Position numbers and translations under genes: made by a program
Assembly (NCBI GenBank): GCA_023129325.1
Contig: JAGMCI010000021.1
Span: 3,712-67,711, forward strand
Direction of reading: 5' to 3'
DNA from: a candidate division WOR-3 bacterium
GTDB lineage: Bacteria > Hydrothermota > UBA3073 > JACQXS01 > JAGMCI01
DNA length: 64,000 nucleotides
The notes under the pieces: generated by a model
Told to the model about the DNA's origin: nothing
The model's database searches: none
Seen by the model: the letters and a program-made list of their open reading frames with translations, nothing else
Shown here: in pieces, positions 14,847-63,668 of the stretch
How the letters are laid out: each line of letters starts with the position of its first letter
Numbering within the stretch: position 1 is the stretch's first letter

Positions 14847-16237
14847 AAAGGCAATGTCTCATCATTTTTAGTCTTGCCCTCTTAATAAGATTGGGATTTG
14901 CAATTCCTGCATTTATTCATCCAGAAAGAGGATTTGGATTTGGAGCAGATTCTTACCAGTATAATGAACTTGCAAAAAACATGATAGAGTATCACAGGTT
15001 TTCAGTTTATCCTGAATCGGCTTATATTCCTGAACCTGCAAGGACACCTGGATATCCATTTCTTATCGGAATAGTTTATTCTATATTTGGACCAAAACCG
15101 CAAATTATAATATTTTTACAAACACTTATTGATGCTATTACAGCGGTCTTAATTTACATTATTGTTGCCTTTAGCTTTACGAGGCTTGCTGGATTTATAA
15201 GTGGAATTATATATGCAGTAAATCTACATCAGGCTCTTTATACGACCCAAATATTAACTGAAACGAGTTTTACATTCTTTCTTTTCCTGAGCTTATTTTT
15301 TCTATTAAGATTTATTAAAATTAGAAACTATTACTATCTCATTATATCGTCTATTCTTATTGGAGTTGCTACTTTTATAAAACCAATTGCTATTTATTTC
15401 CCGATATTTATTTGTATTTGGTTGCTCATTAGTTTCAAGGATAGACTAAAAATAGCTCTTAAGTCATCAGCAATAGTGCTACTTGTTTTTATAGCTGTAA
15501 TTACTCCCTGGGGGTTAAGGAATTATTTATGTTTTGGTAAATTTTTTATTTCAATTATGGATGATATTAACCTTGCACAGTTCAATGCTGCATCTGTGCT
15601 TGCAAGGAAAGAAAAAATTACTGAAGATGAGGCGAGGAAAAGGATTTTTGAACTCCTGAAAGAGAAATACAAGCTTAGTGCCGAAGAAATAGCCTTATTT
15701 GGTGACAGTCCCAAGGTGAGTGGGTTAATGAGAAACATAGGATTAGAAATTATACGCAAGAATCCGGGAATATATGCAATAGAACATGGACTTGGTTTTT
15801 TAAAAGTCTTTGTGCATTCTGAGTTAGCATACTGGTCGAGATTATTTTATGGATATGAACGAGAAAAATTGAAAGCCATAAGACCTATTTCAAAAGAGGT
15901 TTTAAGACTTATTTTCAAAGGTAAGATAAAAATGGCTATTAACTTATTTAATAAAGAAAGGTTGCAGATATTCCCTTTGCATTTAATTTCTCTCTGGGGA
16001 TTTATTTCTGTATTTGAGTTGCTTGTTTATGTAATATCATTTTTTGGTGTAGTATCTCTCTCTAAAAACAGCTCTGCAAGGCTAAGAGCCTTGCCTATAC
16101 TTTTTATTCTTACTATTTTTTACTTTGCCTTTCTCCCGGGACCTGTGGGAGATGCCAGATTTCGTGTCCCCATTGAGCCTTATATCTCAATTCTTGCTGG
16201 ATGTGGATTGATTAATTTTATTAAAAGGAGAACATAA
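14843..16237 (+). CDS. Polytopic membrane glycosyltransferase, GT39/ArnT-like; carries one palindrome insert
   Basis: 464 aa with about 10 or more hydrophobic segments. The N-terminal loop ...TPGYPFLIG resembles ArnT/PMT family proteins. ATGA overlap with the wbqC-like gene. Insert at 16076-16094 (peptide SARLRALP). Confidence 0.55.
   Translation: MKRQCLIIFSLALLIRLGFAIPAFIHPERGFGFGADSYQYNELAKNMIEYHRFSVYPESAYIPEPARTPGYPFLIGIVYSIFGPKPQIIIFLQTLIDAITAVLIYIIVAFSFTRLAGFISGIIYAVNLHQALYTTQILTETSFTFFLFLSLFFLLRFIKIRNYYYLIISSILIGVATFIKPIAIYFPIFICIWLLISFKDRLKIALKSSAIVLLVFIAVITPWGLRNYLCFGKFFISIMDDINLAQFNAASVLARKEKITEDEARKRIFELLKEKYKLSAEEIALFGDSPKVSGLMRNIGLEIIRKNPGIYAIEHGLGFLKVFVHSELAYWSRLFYGYEREKLKAIRPISKEVLRLIFKGKIKMAINLFNKERLQIFPLHLISLWGFISVFELLVYVISFFGVVSLSKNSSARLRALPILFILTIFYFAFLPGPVGDARFRVPIEPYISILAGCGLINFIKRRT
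16076..16094. repeat. GCAAGGC-TAAGA-GCCTTGC hairpin inside the ArnT-like gene
   Basis: Same family as 57473-57490 and 61154-61172. The flanking ...CCTAT is also shared. Confidence 0.8.
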
Positions 16238-16270
16238 ACTACAGATTTTTTAAATTTACTAAAAAAAAAC

Positions 16271-16299
16271 TTGACTTTTTATATAGTTTAGTGTATTAA
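16271..16299 (+). promoter_or_regulatory. Promoter of the OmpA-like gene
   Basis: TTGACT 16271-16276, 17 nt, TATTAA 16294-16299. An A9 tract lies upstream. Confidence 0.5.
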
Positions 16300-16368
16300 G
16301 TATAAAAACATAAGTGAATGTGTTCTATGAGAAAAGGGACTATAGTTATATAGCTTAAAGGAGGTAAA

Positions 16369-61447: not shown

Positions 61448-61518
61448 ATATCAAAATTCAAAATTTTTTTGGATTTTGATGTTTATAATTTGAGCATATA
61501 ATTTATGTTTCTCCGTAT

Positions 61519-62364
61519 TCATTTGTGGTTAATGTATATTTTCAAAAAACTCGTTATCTTCTCTACAGATTCAGGAACTGAGCCTGTAAATATTTCTCCT
61601 TGTTTCTTTTGCTCTGGGGCAAAGATACACATTACCTGAGTGGGAGAACCATTTAAACCAACACTTTCCTCTTTAACATTAAGGTCATTAATTTTCCATG
61701 TCAAAATTTCTGCTGATTTTGCTTTAAGCTTTCCTCTTAAAGTTGGAAGTCTTGGTTCATTTATTTCCTTGACAACTGTAAATAGAGCCGGCAAAGAAGT
61801 TTCTATAATTTCAAAACCCTGCTCAACAAGTCTTTCTACTTTAGCATATCCGCCTGTACGGGCGTATTGTGATACCCCCCTACTCGGCGAGACGGAGGCG
61901 GGATTAATTTCCTCTATTTTTTTCACAAGAGTAACTACCGGGATTGATAAAATTTCCGCCAGTTCAGGACCGACCTGTGCTGTATCACCATCTATAGCTT
62001 GTTTTCCACACAATATAAGGTCAAAGTTACCAATCTTCTTAATTGCCATAGCTAAAGTATAAGAAGTAGCTAAAGTATCGGCACCTGCAAATGATTTATC
62101 AGATATAAGAACTGCTTTATCTATACCCATTGATATAGCTTCTTCAAGTACTTCTTTGGCCTGAGGAGGCCCCATTGAAATAGCAGTGACCCTCCCACCC
62201 ATTTTTTCTTTTATTCTAAGCCCTTCTTCGATAGCATACATATCAAATGGATTTATAATTGATGGGACTCCTTCTCTAATAAGAGTATTAGTCTCTGGAT
62301 TAATTTTAATTTCAGGCGATTCCGATATATCTGGGACTTGTTTTAGGCATACAATTATATGCAT
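61519..62364 (-). CDS. etfB: Electron transfer flavoprotein beta subunit; one composite palindrome insert
   Basis: MHIIVCLKQVPD..., NPFDMYAIEEGLR, LILCGKQAIDGDTAQVGP. Insert at 61859-61913 (PASVSPSRGVSQYARTGG). Confidence 0.9.
   Translation of the reverse strand: MHIIVCLKQVPDISESPEIKINPETNTLIREGVPSIINPFDMYAIEEGLRIKEKMGGRVTAISMGPPQAKEVLEEAISMGIDKAVLISDKSFAGADTLATSYTLAMAIKKIGNFDLILCGKQAIDGDTAQVGPELAEILSIPVVTLVKKIEEINPASVSPSRGVSQYARTGGYAKVERLVEQGFEIIETSLPALFTVVKEINEPRLPTLRGKLKAKSAEILTWKINDLNVKEESVGLNGSPTQVMCIFAPEQKKQGEIFTGSVPESVEKITSFLKIYINHK
61859..61913. repeat. 55-nt composite GC-rich palindrome inside etfB
   Basis: TCCGCCTG...GGAGGCGGGA outer arms, with ACGGGCGTATTGTGATACCCCC inside. Confidence 0.7.
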
Positions 62365-63668
62365 CAGGCGCCAAATTTCTTAAGCTTTAATGCGTGAGCC
62401 AGCATAAGAGGAATTGCATCTACAGCATTAAAGTGCCCAAGTCCTCCTCTCATACACTCTCTTTCTGTAAATCTTTTAGCAGAATCTGGTATTATCCATT
62501 TTGAATAAAGCAAAAAGGGATTTGGATGCCAGGAATGAGCTTTGAGGAGTGAAGGAGTAGAATGGTCACCCGTTATAACAAAAACATTATCTGTTGATTG
62601 ATGGACAAGTTCAAGTAATATTGGAACATATTTATCTATCTCTTCTATTATTTTCACCTTGTTCTCAAAATTTCCATCCTCTCCGAAACTATCTGTCTTT
62701 TTAATATGTAAATAAAAGAAATTGTATTGCTTCCAATATTTTTTAAGTGTAAGGATTTCATCTTCAATGGTGTAGCCTGTTTCCAAAACATCCATTCCCA
62801 CAAGACTTGCCAGACCTCTATACATTGGATAAGTGGCGATTGCTGCGGGAGTCAATTTAAATCTTTCTTGCATTAACTTAAGTTTTGGAAGCTTGGCAAA
62901 TCCGCGAAGGAGAACCATATTAGCCGGCTCCGTCCCGCTTCGCTTGTCGGAACGGGGTGGGCTAAGAATAGATTTAGCCTTATTCACAAATATATTTACA
63001 ATTCTTGCTGTCTTTTCTGCCTCAGGAACTAATGGCTTACAGATCAATGGTGGATTTCCTGTTTTCTGTGGGTCAGTCTCAGTTATACGTTCATCCAGTC
63101 CAGAGCCACGAAATACGAGAACAAAACGATGTTCTTTTCCTGGCATAACTTCAACTTTTACATTCTCTCTGCCAAAGGCGCCCGCCTGCTGCCCATCGGG
63201 CAGGGATGTGCCTCCGGCACAAATTTTATTTATCTCTGTTTGTAACCTTTTACATATTTTTTGGTTAACTTCAGTAGATATTCTGCCAGCTCTACGGTCT
63301 ATAATCAGACCTTCAGCATCAACTGTGGCAAAGTTTCCCCGAGCTGCTATATCTTCTGGATTAAGGGAAACTCCCACGCCAAGAGCTTCAAGCACTCCTC
63401 TACCTATTTGATATTTAATAGGGTTGTACCCAAAAAGGGAAAGATGGGCTGGTCCTGAGCCTGGGGTAATTCCGGGAGCCACAGCATCCGTGAGCCCAGT
63501 AATTGATTTTTGGGCAAGTTTATCTAAATTTGGCGTTTTTGCAGTTTCAAGTTCAGTATATCCCTGCCCGACGGATGGCAGGCGGGCCTTTTTTGGCAAT
63601 CCACCAACTCCATCCAGGACAAGCAATAAAATTTTTGAGTCTGTTTTTAGGGCTAATTCCTCTATCAT
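62364..63668 (-). CDS. apgM: Cofactor-independent phosphoglycerate mutase, archaeal type (ApgM-like); three GC-rich inserts
   Basis: KILLLVLDGVGGLP...TPNLDKLA...PGSGPAHLSLFGYNP...ITGDHSTP. Start set to MIEELAL (63668), directly after the promoter. The stop overlaps the etfB start by 1 nt (TGATG). Confidence 0.85.
   Translation of the reverse strand: MIEELALKTDSKILLLVLDGVGGLPKKARLPSVGQGYTELETAKTPNLDKLAQKSITGLTDAVAPGITPGSGPAHLSLFGYNPIKYQIGRGVLEALGVGVSLNPEDIAARGNFATVDAEGLIIDRRAGRISTEVNQKICKRLQTEINKICAGGTSLPDGQQAGAFGRENVKVEVMPGKEHRFVLVFRGSGLDERITETDPQKTGNPPLICKPLVPEAEKTARIVNIFVNKAKSILSPPRSDKRSGTEPANMVLLRGFAKLPKLKLMQERFKLTPAAIATYPMYRGLASLVGMDVLETGYTIEDEILTLKKYWKQYNFFYLHIKKTDSFGEDGNFENKVKIIEEIDKYVPILLELVHQSTDNVFVITGDHSTPSLLKAHSWHPNPFLLYSKWIIPDSAKRFTERECMRGGLGHFNAVDAIPLMLAHALKLKKFGA
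62921..62963. repeat. GC-rich hairpin inside apgM
   Basis: TAGCC...GGCTA and CCGTCCCG/CGGAACGG arms. The loop shares AAGCGAAGCGG (reverse complement) with the 53816 element. Confidence 0.65.
63177..63220. repeat. GC-rich double hairpin inside apgM
   Basis: CTGCCCATCGGGCAG and GTGCCTCCGGCAC hairpins preceded by GGCGCCCGCCTG. Read as CAGGTSLPDGQQAGA. Confidence 0.65.
63562..63588. repeat. CCCTGCCCGAC-GGATGG-CAGGCGGGCC element inside apgM
   Basis: Same element as intergenic 4567-4590, with 2 mismatches. Confidence 0.85.

What the first reader, a model, noticed from the sequence alone, without database searches (positions are those of the whole stretch)
16076..63588. Short GC-rich palindromes inserted in-frame into at least 14 otherwise ordinary protein-coding genes
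Against an AT-rich background, about 25 discrete 15-55 nt GC-rich inverted repeats lie inside intact ORFs and are read through as Gly/Ala/Pro/Arg/Ser-rich peptides. Host genes and insert positions are:
- ArnT-like (16076)
- GT2 (23498, 23613)
- GT-B (24201, 24858)
- GT4 (28116)
- asparaginase (41676)
- GatA (50647)
- GlmL-like (51925)
- ORF 52835 (53816)
- Pcm (54507, 54760)
- DUF2851 (six sites)
- EtfA (60614, 61154, 61232)
- EtfB (61859)
- ApgM (62921, 63177, 63562)

The same sequences recur between genes (4567, 4611, 6879, 23987, 38712, 48651), so they are members of repeat families and not gene-specific codons. One palindrome type is translated in all three frames (SASGG in EtfA, PPQAE in GT4, RLRR in DUF2851). 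That pattern argues for insertion followed by selection for frame preservation, not a conserved peptide. The closest described precedents are the Rickettsia palindromic elements and the GC clusters of yeast mitochondria. These elements are much shorter, come in many families (TCCGCC-N3-GGCGGA, TCCGTYAGCTRACGGA, CCCGCAC..GTGCGGG, GCAAGGC..GCCTTGC, CTGCCCGAC..CAGGCGGGC, GGGCGTAT..ATACGCCC and others), and are unusually dense in housekeeping enzymes.
Basis: partly seen in the sequence, partly recalled or inferred. Interest (0 to 1): 0.9.

Follow-up and report, generated by a model that had tools for sequence, protein, structure and literature searches.

The report
REP-like palindromes inserted inside genes
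An uncultured WOR-3 bacterium carries dozens of very short repeated DNA hairpins (and some tandem repeats) inserted in frame inside ordinary enzyme genes, a known kind of event (REP and RPE elements inside genes) but at an unusually high density, and one hairpin family turns up in several other bacterial phyla.

Summary
The window is part of a 107-kb contig of a candidate division WOR-3 MAG (GCA_030643605.1). I catalogued 42 short repeat elements. Of these, 27 lie inside 13 intact genes and 15 lie between genes. Perfect GC-rich hairpins are about 17 times more frequent than in shuffled sequence, and the named families have a chance expectation near zero.

Compared with a syntenic relative (54-85% aa identity) and with solved structures, almost every internal insertion of 4 or more residues in ApgM, EtfA, EtfB, DUF2851, Pcm, GatA and asparaginase coincides with one of these elements. 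In an ApgM model the three inserts fall in low-confidence coil. One family is read in all three frames.

Corrections:
- The GatA insert is a tandem heptamer array, not a palindrome.
- Five GC-rich composites fold no better than shuffles.
- The closest precedent is not only RPE or yeast GC clusters. Intragenic REPs (GTAG/CGTC-tagged stem-loops, Di Nocera 2013) are closer, and several families here carry the GTAG tag.

New points:
- Density is about 35 times that of the richest genome in that survey.
- Elements are nested at palindrome centres.
- The same modules occur in RpoB, RpoC, L7/L12 and L11.
- One untagged family occurs in at least 120 metagenome contigs from at least four phyla.

The mobilising enzyme is unknown.

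The parts
4565..4591 (.). F6 module CCTGCCCGAC-N4-GGCAGGCGGGC, intergenic. Preceded by GTAGCCGAACCCC.
4611..4636 (+). F7 hairpin with GTAG tag (GTAG-CGCGGGGC-TTTAT-GCCCCGC), intergenic
6715..6740 (.). Degenerate F3 copy, intergenic
6879..6909 (.). F8 module GGTTCACTACGACCTTCACCACGGAGTGG, intergenic
6937..6952 (.). F2 palindrome TCCGTCAGCTAACGGA, intergenic
16076..16111 (.). F4 hairpin GCAAGGC-N5-GCCTTGC plus a T-rich tail, inside the PMT_2/ArnT-like gene. 84% identical over 37 nt to the EtfA copy.
   Evidence: (D19)
22720..22735 (.). F2 palindrome TCCGTCAGCTGACGGA, intergenic
23497..23536 (.). F3 hairpin TCCCGCACATAATTTATGTGCGGGA followed by a half copy of F5 (TATACGCCCCTAC), inside GT2. Read as NPAHKLCAG.
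   Evidence: z -6.4
23613..23649 (.). Extended F1 element (37 nt) inside GT2, read as IGGTSARGGLPV
   Evidence: D9, 97% identical pair; z -4.1
23986..24011 (.). F3 hairpin, intergenic between GT2 and GT-B
24201..24237 (.). Extended F1 element inside GT-B, read as IGSTSARGGLPV. The Pfam Glycos_transf_1 match stops at residue 379, just before it.
24858..24883 (.). F3 hairpin inside GT-B
25455..25477 (.). F9 hairpin CCCCGAAC..GTTCGGGG, intergenic
28116..28166 (.). Triple nested composite inside GT4: F1 inside TCCGTC..ACGGA inside CCCGCCTG..GGCGGGCAGG. Read as PARLRYPPQAETDLTGG. Overwrites a helix, net +4 to +8 aa.
   Evidence: z -4.8
33349..33372 (.). F3 copy with a degenerate left arm, intergenic
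   Evidence: (D16)
38712..38726 (.). F1 15-mer at the centre of a roughly 120-nt intergenic inverted-repeat element
41676..41708 (.). Perfect 15-bp-stem hairpin ATTCATCCCGAACCG-AGA-.. inside asparaginase, in the linker before the Thr nucleophile
   Evidence: z -8.0
48651..48665 (.). F1 15-mer at the centre of the intergenic inverted-repeat element. The paralogous copy at 34994-35116 lacks it.
   Evidence: (D8, D15)
50643..50758 (+). Tandem heptamer array (GGAAGTR / CAGAAGT, 16.6 copies) in frame in GatA. A 34-aa insertion relative to solved GatA. Not a palindrome.
51925..51939 (.). F1 copy with one mismatch (TCCACCTCAGGCGGA) inside the GlmL-family gene, read as STSGG
52814..52830 (.). F1 (ATCCGCCTTAGGCGGAT) in the overlap of the GlmL 3' end and the next ORF's 5' end
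53811..53870 (.). 60-nt GC-rich composite of CCTGCC/CCCGCC/GGCAGG modules with a GCGAAGC loop, inside ORF 52787-53947. Fold is not better than shuffles.
   Evidence: z -1.1
54506..54537 (.). GC-rich composite inside Pcm (KPASPASQGG). A 9-aa insertion absent from L003 and PDB orthologues.
54760..54785 (.). F3-variant 13-bp perfect palindrome inside Pcm (APHLCISAG). A 5-7 aa insertion.
   Evidence: z -7.0
55032..55054 (-). GTAG-tagged hairpin GTAG-CCGAACCC-TTTA-GGGTTCG, intergenic
57269..57284 (.). F2 palindrome at the DUF2851 C-terminus
57360..57374 (.). F1 inside DUF2851 (IRLRRK). Net +4 aa against L003.
57472..57495 (-). F4 hairpin with a GTAG tag inside DUF2851 (VGQGFSLA). Absent from L003 and from the Stahlbacteria orthologue.
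57752..57812 (-). F7 copy (GTAG-tagged, degenerate) and a degenerate F3 copy in the variable region of DUF2851
58456..58510 (-). Nested element at the DUF2851 N-terminus: F8 module inside the loop of GTAG-GGGCGTAT..ATACGCCC (F5). A 16-aa insertion.
   Evidence: z -3.1
60610..60638 (.). F1 plus an extra right arm inside EtfA (LSASGGGE). An 8-aa insertion.
61154..61189 (.). F4 hairpin plus tail inside EtfA (KEKEDRQGSQPC). A 12-aa insertion.
   Evidence: (D19)
61230..61255 (-). F5 hairpin (GTAA-GGGCGTAT-GGCA-ATACGCCC on the sense strand) in the ferredoxin-ETF linker of EtfA. No net length change against CarE.
61849..61903 (-). Composite inside EtfB: a GTAG-tagged degenerate F5 flanked by TCCGCC../..GGCGGGA arms. 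A 16-aa insertion.
   Evidence: z -0.5
62921..62963 (.). CCGTYCCG-loop(GCGAAGC)-CGGRACGG module inside ApgM (PRSDKRSGTE, 10 aa). The same module is in L7/L12.
63169..63221 (.). Composite of three small hairpins inside ApgM (CAGGTSLPDGQQAGAFGR, 18 aa)
63560..63591 (.). F6 module inside ApgM (KARLPSVG, 8 aa). The same module is at 4565 and in L7/L12.

Best explanation
These are small, non-autonomous, REP-like repeat elements. Most are single GC-rich stem-loops of 15-37 nt belonging to about ten sequence families. They have multiplied in this WOR-3 genome and landed both between and inside genes.

Inside genes, only copies whose net length is a multiple of three, that contain no stop codon in the reading frame, and that fall in tolerant places survive. 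Tolerant places are loops, interdomain linkers and termini. Surviving copies are translated as Gly/Ala/Pro/Arg/Ser-rich extra residues.

- Shown: the elements are dispersed repeats, they are lineage-specific insertions, and they are read through in any frame.
- Inferred: how they move. The most likely route is copying or transposition as single-stranded hairpins by an enzyme acting in trans. A RAYT/IS200-type HUH tyrosine transposase is the best candidate for the GTAG-tagged families. An unknown activity would serve the untagged (A)TCC(C)G...C(G)GGA(T) families. There is a preference for the apex of existing hairpins.

A second class, tandem 7/15/21-nt arrays encoding (EVGSG)n, has spread in the same way.
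For: **Repeat families far above chance.**

**Identical modules in unrelated genes.**
- A 37-nt element is 97% identical in GT2 and GT-B (D9).
- A 37-nt element is 84% identical in the ArnT-like gene and EtfA (D19).
- KARLP and PRSDKRSG modules are shared by ApgM and L7/L12.

**Lineage-specific insertions.**
- They are absent from the syntenic relative L003/L004. That relative has 0 such hairpins in 21 kb, against 25 in 73.7 kb here.
- Ten ApgM homologues lack the 18-aa and 10-aa inserts. At the 8-aa site two of them carry an unrelated 6-aa insertion of their own.
- They are absent from PDB orthologues.

**Peptide not selected.** All three frames are used.

**Tolerant positions.** Inserts coincide with low-pLDDT coil in the ApgM model.

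**Purifying selection.** Intergenic density is 3.8 times the intragenic density.

**REP signature.**
- GTAG lies next to 6 of 37 hairpins, against a 2.9% background.
- Examples are GTAG-GGGCGTAT-N4-ATACGCCC and GTAG-CGCGGGGC..GCCCCGC.
- This tag defines the RAYT-associated REP superfamily, which is also reported inside genes (PMC3733652).

**Filled and empty sites.**
- Three paralogous intergenic elements of about 120 nt differ by exactly the 15-mer TCCGCCTTAGGCGGA at their centre.
- Related metagenome contigs differ by a 37-nt hairpin (95% identical pair).
- Another pair (84% identical) differs by a 39-nt in-frame GTAG-tagged hairpin.

**Nesting at palindrome centres.** Seen at 28116 and 58456, and in about 20% of metagenome F3 copies.

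**Spread beyond this genome.**
- The F3 core occurs in at least 120 metagenome contigs with GC 0.28-0.65 and no common neighbouring gene.
- It lies in frame inside MetH, PheT, GT4, MiaA and radical-SAM genes.
- Contigs are attributable to Planctomycetota, Nitrospinota and a Gracilimonas-like organism.
- The closing base pair covaries: C:G 54, T:A 43.
Against: - No transposase of any kind lies in the window.
- No Y1/HUH protein was found in 74 kb of this genome or in 788 kb of metagenome loci. The rest of the genome could not be read.
- The three commonest families (F1, F2, F3) have no GTAG or CGTC tag.
- No target-site duplication or conserved target could be defined. The nearest relative is too diverged (ApgM 68-75% aa identity depending on method), and nothing lies between it and 100% in the protein database.
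- Several inserts are GC-rich composites without a convincing fold.
- In GT4 the element replaces sequence and does not simply add to it.
- Movement within this lineage is therefore inferred from distribution, not observed.
Confidence: 0.7

Rival explanations
1. The elements spread without a dedicated transposase. Hairpins extruded during replication are cut at the apex, for example by SbcCD-type nucleases, and the break is repaired by short templated copying from another hairpin elsewhere. This is microhomology-mediated ectopic synthesis or gene conversion. Palindromes would then beget palindromes, preferentially at the centres of existing ones.
For: - Elements are nested exactly at palindrome centres (28116, 58456).
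- F1 sits at the centre of a larger inverted repeat.
- There are partial copies with one extra arm (60610) and half copies (23522, 33349).
- The element replaces sequence in GT4.
- No transposase was found nearby.
- CGTC-type REPs are reported to lack a dedicated transposase (PMC3733652).
Against: - An identical 22-25-nt core in at least four phyla is hard to obtain by local repair alone. It needs horizontal transfer of a template.
- The GTAG tag on several families points to the RAYT system.
- Sister genomes of the same composition have almost none. That suggests an activity present in one lineage, not a general repair side-effect.
Confidence: 0.15
2. The hairpins are host-useful signals, such as terminators, mRNA stabilisers, or binding sites for gyrase, IHF or a regulator. 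Selection keeps them, and the intragenic copies are by-products or act as internal regulatory structures.
For: - Intergenic copies often sit just downstream of genes, and some are followed by T-runs. Examples are the F4 tail CTATACTTTTTATTCTT, F3 at 23986 followed by T7, and F3 between L7/L12 and rpoB.
- Intergenic density is 3.8 times higher.
- About 85% of metagenome F3 copies are outside long ORFs.
- GTAG tags of intragenic copies lie on the sense strand in about 8 of 9 cases (and sequence reading).
Against: - A function does not explain how the same 15-37-nt sequences arrive inside 13 unrelated genes as extra codons.
- It does not explain why sister genomes manage without them.
- A terminator-like hairpin in the sense orientation inside an essential ORF would be harmful.
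- Function and mobility are not exclusive.
Confidence: 0.1
3. The inserts are not translated. They would be removed from the mRNA or skipped by the ribosome, as with the byp elements derived from GC clusters in Magnusiomyces mitochondria, or phage T4 gene 60.
For: By analogy only (own knowledge): byps are GC-rich inserts of 27-55 nt in coding regions of an AT-rich genome.
Against: All 27 intragenic elements keep the frame and contain no stop codon in the host frame. The same holds for five Pfam-verified host genes in other organisms. Skipped or excised inserts would be under no such constraint, and two thirds would shift the frame.
Confidence: 0.03
4. The elements are an assembly or binning artefact: chimeric joins, or hairpin artefacts of library preparation.
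For: The source is a metagenome-assembled genome.
Against: - The frame is preserved at every intragenic site.
- The same ApgM protein is on two records.
- The F3 element occurs in independent assemblies from JGI, ENA, NCBI and Logan.
- Related contigs from different samples share elements at the same sites.
Confidence: 0.01

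Closest known systems
Intragenic REPs of the GTAG- and CGTC-tagged stem-loop superfamilies (Di Nocera, De Gregorio & Rocco 2013, BMC Genomics 14:522, PMC3733652). GTAG REPs are associated with RAYT (TnpA_REP) transposases.
   Same: - Single GC-rich stem-loops of 20-40 nt with stems of 5-13 bp and loops of 2-20 nt.
- Several families in one genome.
- Mostly intergenic, but also wholly inside ORFs of known proteins, where they encode 7-30 extra residues rich in G/A/P/R/S.
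- Singles, dimers and clusters all occur.
- Some families are shared by distant species.
- Here F5, F7, a CCGAACCC hairpin and one F4 copy carry the GTAG tag.
   Different: - The three commonest families (F1 15-17 nt, F2 16 nt, F3 23-27 nt) are perfect palindromes with no GTAG or CGTC tag.
- 64% of elements are intragenic, at 0.42 per kb. That compares with about 70 intragenic REPs in the O. terrae list, over a genome I take from memory to be about 6 Mb, or about 0.012 per kb.
- Hosts include RpoB, RpoC, L7/L12 and L11.
- Elements are nested at palindrome centres.
- No RAYT has been found so far.
- None of the sequences appears in that paper's text or supplements, or in any searchable paper.
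Rickettsia palindromic elements (RPE-1 to RPE-8; Ogata et al. 2000, 2002; cited from my own knowledge and via PMC3733652)
   Same: Palindromic repeats inserted in frame in housekeeping genes of an AT-rich genome. They are translated and tolerated at surface positions. RPE-4 and RPE-6 are short CGTC-tagged stem-loops.
   Different: RPE-1 is 100-150 bp. RPEs are confined to Rickettsia. The CGTC family architecture (8-9 bp stems starting with A/T pairs, 4-5 nt loops, CCA tail) does not match the families here. CGTC lies next to only 2 of 37 hairpins.
GC clusters of yeast mitochondria and the byp elements derived from them (own knowledge; review PMC8811140 appeared)
   Same: Short GC-rich palindromic mobile sequences in an AT-rich genome. 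They come in several families, nest into one another, and sometimes lie in coding sequence (var1).
   Different: They are organellar. Byps break the frame and are skipped by ribosomes. Here every copy keeps the frame and lacks stops, so the copies are most simply translated.
Bacterial MITEs found in frame in genes (Nezha, Chunjie, Correia and others; review PMC10969869 appeared)
   Same: Non-autonomous small repeats that can be read through in frame.
   Different: MITEs are 100-400 bp with terminal inverted repeats and target-site duplications. The elements here are single hairpins of 15-37 nt, with no TIR pair and no detectable duplication.
Short tandemly repeated repetitive (STRR) heptamers of cyanobacteria (own knowledge)
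   Same: Heptanucleotide tandem arrays dispersed around a genome. They resemble the GGAAGTR / CAGAAGT / CCACAGA arrays here.
   Different: STRRs are intergenic. Here arrays of 7, 15 or 21 nt periodicity are in frame in GatA, RpoB (twice), RpoC and L11, encoding (EVGSG)n.

Membership tests
REP, GTAG-tagged superfamily (RAYT-associated) | Short (20-40 nt) GC-rich stem-loop with stem 5-13 bp and loop 2-20 nt | tested here: met
   Stems are 6-15 bp and loops 0-8 nt. Single-stranded DNA folds give z -4 to -8 for F1ext, F3, F9 and the nested 28116 element.
REP, GTAG-tagged superfamily (RAYT-associated) | Unpaired GTAG tetranucleotide at one end of the stem | tested here: inconclusive
   Present on F5 (3 copies), F7 (2), the CCGAACCC hairpin, one F4 copy and one F1ext copy: 6 of 37 hairpins against a 2.9% background. 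Absent from F1, F2 and F3, which make up about half of all copies.
REP, GTAG-tagged superfamily (RAYT-associated) | A RAYT (Y1 HUH transposase) gene in the genome, typically flanked by the REPs | not testable with these tools
   Only 74 kb of the genome could be read. There is no transposase among the window ORFs scanned against Pfam/NCBIfam (most, not all, of the long ORFs). There was no hit to an IS608 TnpA query (from memory) among all ORFs of at least 100 aa in those 74 kb, or in 788 kb of metagenome loci.
REP, GTAG-tagged superfamily (RAYT-associated) | Predominantly extragenic location | tested here: not met
   27 of 42 elements are inside genes. Per kb, however, intergenic DNA is 3.8 times richer.
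REP, GTAG-tagged superfamily (RAYT-associated) | Many copies arranged as head-to-head or tail-to-tail dimers (BIME/REPIN) | tested here: inconclusive
   Elements are adjacent or nested at 4565/4611, 23497/23522, 28116, 57752-57812, 58456 and 63169. No regular dimer spacing is seen in this sample.
CGTC-tagged REPs (including Rickettsia RPE-4/RPE-6, Neisseria dRS3) | CGTC (or TGTC) tag, 8-9 bp stem beginning with A/T pairs, 4-5 nt loop, CCA-like tail | tested here: not met
   CGTC lies next to 2 of 37 hairpins. The F6 modules contain (C/T)GTC-GGGCAGG, but stems and loops do not fit the described architecture.
Rickettsia RPE-1-type elements | 100-150 bp palindromic element inserted in frame | tested here: not met
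   In-frame insertion is met. Length is not: units are 15-37 nt and composites are at most 60 nt.
MITE | Terminal inverted repeats flanking an internal region, target-site duplication, 100-400 bp | tested here: not met
   The elements are single hairpins. No duplication is seen at the filled/empty pairs. The roughly 120-nt intergenic inverted-repeat elements that host F1 are MITE-like, but they are a different entity.
Translational bypass elements (byps) | Insert breaks the frame or carries stops and is skipped by the ribosome | tested here: not met
   All 27 intragenic copies keep the frame without stops. Translation itself was not tested.

The most novel reading that the evidence does not exclude
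The untagged (A)TCC(C)G...C(G)GGA(T) palindromes, F1 to F3 and relatives, would be a distinct class of ultra-short mobile DNA of 15-27 nt.

- They would be moved by an as yet unknown hairpin- or palindrome-specific activity that is not a RAYT.
- They would home to the apex of existing hairpins.
- They would cross phylum boundaries among anaerobic sediment and groundwater bacteria (WOR-3, Planctomycetota, Nitrospinota, Balneolales).
- In some hosts, such as this WOR-3 lineage, control would have failed, so the proteome is peppered with extra loops, including loops in RNA polymerase and ribosomal proteins.
Probability: 0.25. Interest if true: 0.8.

Novelty: new variant of a known kind. Interest (0 to 1): 0.6.

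Why it matters
REPs are among the commonest bacterial repeats, yet how they move and what limits them is still unsettled. This genome has roughly one element per 1.5 kb, and two thirds of them are read through inside enzymes, RNA polymerase and ribosomal proteins.

- It is a natural experiment on which positions in conserved proteins tolerate 5-18 extra residues.
- It shows how small selfish DNA creates new protein loops.
- The cross-phylum family with an invariant 22-nt core gives a concrete handle for finding the mobilising enzyme by co-occurrence across genomes.
- Practically, such inserts inflate protein lengths, break profile matches (GT-B), and can mislead annotation and phylogenetic markers in MAGs.

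Tried and rejected
- **GC-island count.** A simple count of GC-rich islands is not above chance, so I dropped it as a measure.
- **Genome-collection scan.** A scan with DUF2851 returned only one distant Stahlbacteria relative. No close relative exists in the protein database between 68% and 100% identity. Presence/absence polymorphism within this lineage and exact insertion boundaries therefore could not be obtained.
- **Target-site duplications.** Codon-level alignment to L003 and L007 shows the inserts, but the sequences are too diverged to show duplications.
- **Mobilising gene, by neighbourhood.** Clustering of 1,394 ORFs around 120 F3 copies found no recurrent neighbour.
- **Other collections.** F3 is absent from PLSDB plasmids, GenBank phages and IMG/VR viral contigs, so there is no sign of a plasmid or phage vehicle.
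- **Rfam.** It finds only a tmRNA and a tRNA in the window. No hairpin family is known.
- **Literature.** Full-text search for six of the sequences found no paper. They are not in the supplements of PMC3733652.
- **GlmL-like protein.** It has no solved homologue for mapping its insert.
- **Rejected readings:**
  - a conserved peptide motif (three frames are used);
  - local template-switch palindromes (the same sequence occurs in unrelated genes and phyla);
  - an artefact (frame kept, independent assemblies);
  - a link to the adjacent MTase and unknown ORF pair (no evidence beyond proximity).

Full report
**Source and setting.** The window is ordinary chromosomal DNA of an uncultured bacterium.
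- Its ApgM protein is 100% identical to a protein of a 'candidate division WOR-3 bacterium'.
- It lies on contig DAOWLA010000070.1 (107 kb) of assembly GCA_030643605.1.
- GC content is 36.5%.
- The long ORFs scanned against Pfam/NCBIfam are housekeeping or cell-envelope genes, apart from one DNA methyltransferase next to an uncharacterised ORF. None is a transposase, integrase or phage gene. A handful of ORFs were not scanned.
- Locus L002, from the same contig, extends the readable sequence 9.7 kb beyond the window end. It covers SecE, NusG, L11, L1, L10, L7/L12, RpoB and the N-terminal half of RpoC.

- All 25 coordinates hold the sequences described.
- Perfect GC-rich hairpins (stem >=6) number 36, against about 11 in Markov shuffles.
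- With stem >=7 there are 25 in 73.7 kb against 1.5 expected.
- The named families have expectations of 0.0-0.3 but 3-9 copies each.
- Repeated 12-mers with GC >=50% number 280, against 45-90 in shuffles.
- A crude count of GC-rich 15-mers is not enriched. The signal lies in the palindromes and their recurrence.
- My catalogue has 42 elements. Of these, 27 are inside 13 of about 50 genes and 15 are intergenic.
- Coding DNA is 87% of the window, so intergenic DNA is 3.8 times richer per kb. That is the pattern expected if most coding insertions are removed by selection.

**Are they insertions?**
- The syntenic relative L003/L004 has the same gene order, ApgM-EtfB-EtfA-MazG-RF2-DUF2851-Pcm.
- Pairwise alignment (54-85% aa identity) shows that essentially every internal insertion of 4 or more residues in the window's copies is one of the elements. 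The sizes are:

| Gene | Insertions (aa) |
|---|---|
| ApgM | 8, 18, 10 |
| EtfB | 16 |
| EtfA | 12, 8 |
| DUF2851 | 13+3, 9, 4, 4 |
| Pcm | 9, 7 |

- The only exception is a 4-residue AT-rich gap in ApgM.
- Ten ApgM homologues, from 394 to 416 residues, lack the 18-aa and 10-aa inserts. At the 8-aa site two homologues carry their own unrelated 6-residue insertion, so that loop is a recurrent insertion point.
- Solved structures agree:
  - Pcm lacks PASPASQG and CISAG.
  - CarE and EtfA lack IKEKEDRQGSQP and part of SASGGGE.
  - Aquifex GatA lacks 34 residues.
  - Human and bacterial asparaginases are about 10 residues shorter in the linker before the catalytic Thr.
- In an AlphaFold model of ApgM (mean pLDDT 77, pTM 0.81), segments below pLDDT 50 fall at 27-34, 153-164 and 238-245. 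These are the three inserts, all in coil between helices and strands. Part of that low confidence simply reflects empty alignment columns.
- There are two exceptions to clean insertion. The GT4 composite overwrites a helix with a net gain of only 4-8 residues. The EtfA element at 61232 sits in a linker without changing its length.

**Are they one kind of thing?** No. There are three classes.
1. **Clean hairpins.**
   - F1: (A)TCCGCC-N3-GGCGGA(T), ten copies including one degenerate.
   - F2: TCCGTYAGCTRACGGA.
   - F3: (T/C)CCCGCACATAA-N-TTATGTGCGGG(A/G), seven copies.
   - F4: GCAAGGC-N-GCCTTGC with a T-rich tail.
   - F5: GGGCGTAT-N4-ATACGCCC.
   - F7: GCGGGGC-N5-GCCCCGC.
   - F9: CCCGAAC types.
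   - As single-stranded DNA these fold with z-scores of -4 to -8.
2. **GC-rich composite modules.** They are built from CCTGCC, CCCGCC and GGCAGG, sometimes with a GCGAAGC loop. They recur (4565, 53811, 63169, 63560, L7/L12) but fold no better than shuffles (z -0.5 to -1.5).
3. **Tandem arrays of 7, 15 or 21 nt.**
   - The GatA insert is a 16.6-copy heptamer array with no structure.
   - Related arrays encode (EVGSG)n in RpoB (twice), RpoC and the C-terminus of L11.
   - The RpoB arrays sit at loops that vary in length among solved polymerases.
   - The sister genome has a 2 x 15-nt array (EVRSREVRPR) at a different EtfA site.

**Evidence of dispersal, not local origin.**
- A 37-nt F1-containing element is 97% identical in two unrelated glycosyltransferase genes (D9).
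- A 37-nt F4 element is shared by the ArnT-like gene and EtfA (D19).
- The ApgM modules KARLP(S) and PRSDKRSG both recur in the N-terminus of L7/L12.
- RpoB carries an F1 copy, and also a 25-residue N-terminal insert absent from E. coli RpoB that contains a nested hairpin.
- The F1 15-mer is read as SASGG/SARGG/STSGG, PPQAE/NPPLAE and IRLRR(K/I), that is, in all three frames. This excludes selection on a peptide.

**Nesting and filled/empty sites.**
- At 28116, F1 sits in the centre of a TCCGTC..ACGGA palindrome, which sits in the centre of CCCGCCTG..GGCGGGCAGG.
- At 58456, an F8 module sits in the loop of a GTAG-tagged F5.
- Three paralogous intergenic inverted-repeat elements of about 120 nt align throughout, except that two carry TCCGCCTTAGGCGGA at their centre and one does not.
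- Among metagenome contigs that share F3, one 95%-identical pair differs by a 37-nt hairpin between CTTCGTG heptamers.
- One 84%-identical pair differs by a 39-nt GTAG-tagged hairpin, which is a second tandem copy in frame inside an ORF.
- These are the only direct presence/absence polymorphisms I could obtain, and they are not from the window's own lineage.

**Relatives.**
- The syntenic sister genome has 0 such hairpins in 21 kb (L003) and 15 kb (L004).
- Two other WOR-3-like relatives have 1 each in about 20 kb. One of those is an intergenic F4 copy (GCAAGGCTCTAGCCTTGC in L007).
- A Stahlbacteria contig has 3 in 12 kb, one of them inside its DUF2851 gene.
- So the families are older than this genome, but the expansion into genes is particular to it.

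**A family that crosses phyla.**
- Their GC content ranges from 0.28 to 0.65.
- Proteins shared with the window are only 36-52% identical (61.6% for one DeoC-family protein), including S2 at 43% and RF2 at 36%.
- No gene recurs next to the element.
- Exact-sequence look-ups place four contigs near named genomes: Planctomycetota MAGs (L030, L032), a Nitrospinota MAG (L050) and Gracilimonas mengyeensis (L044).
- The base pair just outside the searched core is complementary in 89% of 111 distinct copies and covaries (C:G 54, T:A 43). Further out, complementarity decays to near background, except in about 20% of copies that sit inside longer palindromes.
- About 15% of copies lie in ORFs of at least 150 residues. 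Five were verified by Pfam:
  - the linker between the first two domains of MetH;
  - inside the B3_4 domain of PheT (9 extra residues);
  - between the two Rossmann domains of a GT4;
  - just after the MiaA domain;
  - just after a radical-SAM domain.
- In these genes it is read as TPHINYVRG, PAHNLCAG or PRTYFMCGG.
- F1 co-occurs in nine of these contigs, where 0.05 would be expected. Other hairpins there share the TCCC...GGGA design.
- F3 is absent from PLSDB plasmids, GenBank phages and IMG/VR.

**Comparison with what is known.**
A closer precedent exists. Di Nocera et al. (PMC3733652) sorted prokaryotic REPs into GTAG- and CGTC-tagged stem-loop superfamilies.
- Those REPs have stems of 5-13 bp and loops of 2-20 nt, fall into 24 + 4 families, often occur with several families per genome, and some families are shared by distant species.
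- The same paper listed REPs wholly inside genes of known function, encoding 7-30 extra residues.
- Here GTAG abuts 6 of 37 hairpins, against a 2.9% background. It is a consistent feature of F5, F7 and a CCGAACCC hairpin.
- Those families therefore pass the sequence-level tests for GTAG REPs.
- F1, F2 and F3 do not. They are untagged perfect palindromes. The CGTC architecture is not met either.
- The defining association with a RAYT gene could not be tested, because only 74 kb of the genome is readable here.
- Density is the main quantitative difference.
  - The O. terrae list, the richest in that survey, holds about 70 intragenic REPs.
  - The window has 27 in 64 kb, which is about 35 times denser.
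- None of the sequences occurs in searchable papers.

**Mechanism.**
- Shown:
  - The elements are dispersed repeats.
  - They are lineage-specific additions to genes.
  - They are kept in frame in any frame.
  - They concentrate in tolerant positions.
  - They are enriched between genes.
  - They are nested at palindrome centres.
  - Hairpin pairing, not only sequence, is conserved.
- Inferred: they move as single-stranded hairpins through a trans-acting enzyme. This would be RAYT-like for the tagged families and unknown for the rest, with hairpin apices as preferred targets, followed by purifying selection.
- A transposase-free route (apex cleavage plus templated repair) remains possible and would explain half copies and replacement events.
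- One small observation bears on this. The GTAG (or ATAG/GTAA) tag of intragenic copies is on the sense strand in about 8 of 9 cases, whichever chromosome strand the gene is on (and reading). This is opposite to what stop-codon avoidance would favour. It hints at a strand preference linked to transcription or replication direction. The sample is too small to lean on.

**Verdict.** It belongs to a known kind of phenomenon, REP/RPE-type palindromes read through inside genes. It is a distinct variant in four respects:
- extreme intragenic density;
- hosts that include the core transcription and translation machinery;
- untagged ultra-short families, one of which is shared across at least four phyla;
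- a companion class of in-frame tandem arrays.

Noticed in passing
L002 612-647 (RpoC), 3837-3904 and 5196-5234 (RpoB), about 8074-8137 (L11 3' end); window 50643-50758 (GatA); L003 EtfA residues 101-110: Tandem 7/15/21-nt arrays (GAAGTGGGAAGTGGA and variants) are in frame in RpoB (twice), RpoC, L11 and GatA. They encode (EVGSG)n or KWEVGSG repeats. The sister genome has a 2 x 15-nt array (EVRSREVRPR) at another EtfA site. This class is distinct from the palindromes.
   Followed up: partly
L002 6593-6631 (L7/L12 N-terminus) and L002 about 5640-5740 (RpoB residues about 97-137): L7/L12 starts with about 25 extra residues (SPASP..KARLPRSDKRSG) built from the same two modules found separately in ApgM. 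RpoB has a 25-residue insert absent from E. coli RpoB, containing a nested hairpin followed by GCAGAGGA repeats.
   Followed up: partly
window 34994-35116, 48584-48719, 38660-38790: Three copies of an intergenic imperfect inverted-repeat element of about 120 nt. It is made of CCACAGA/ACAGAGG units on one arm and TCTGTGG/CTTCTG units on the other, and ends next to TTGACA promoter-like boxes. Similar heptamer-rich stretches fill most intergenic regions (4434-4472, 33330-33470, 54917-54990, 59800-59840).
   Followed up: partly
window 47929-48040: A perfect 56-nt tandem duplication spans the stop codon of the MetH gene, so the last 18 codons plus the stop are repeated immediately downstream.
   Followed up: no
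window 55261-57127: An N6/N4 adenine DNA methyltransferase (56201-57127) sits next to a 291-aa ORF with no family match (55261-56136). Both lie between DUF2851 and Pcm and are absent from the syntenic relative L003. This may be an inserted restriction-modification pair. No link to the palindromes was found.
   Followed up: partly
window 58569-58605 and 59661-59697: A 37-nt repeat (TTATTGAAACCGCAGATAAAC.CT.ATGCACGCAGAT, 95% identical) lies just upstream of the likely starts of both DUF2851 and RF2. The long ORFs listed for these genes probably start too early.
   Followed up: no
window 33521-33897 and 63859-63931: A tmRNA gene (165 bits) and a tRNA gene. An F3 half-copy lies about 150 nt upstream of the tmRNA.
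   Followed up: no
window 32150-32183: A 16-bp-stem hairpin AAAGGGGGGAAAGGAA-CA-TTCCTTTCCCCCCTTT between two convergent genes. It looks like an ordinary bidirectional terminator, not a repeat family member.
   Followed up: no
window 53840-53850, 62938-62946; L002 about 6600: The loops of several composite modules contain GCGAAGC. From my own knowledge this forms an unusually stable DNA mini-hairpin.
   Followed up: no
L007 14330-14347; L001 10729-10750: An F4-family hairpin (GCAAGGCTCTAGCCTTGC) lies between two genes of a more distant WOR-3-like relative. A different 9-bp-stem GC hairpin lies inside the DUF2851 gene of a Stahlbacteria MAG. The phenomenon is therefore patchy across the group.
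   Followed up: partly
L078 2713-2755 and L083 9019-9061: In two metagenome contigs the F3 hairpin sits exactly in the centre of CCCGCCTAGC...GCTAGGCGGG. This is the same kind of outer palindrome as at window 28116.
   Followed up: no
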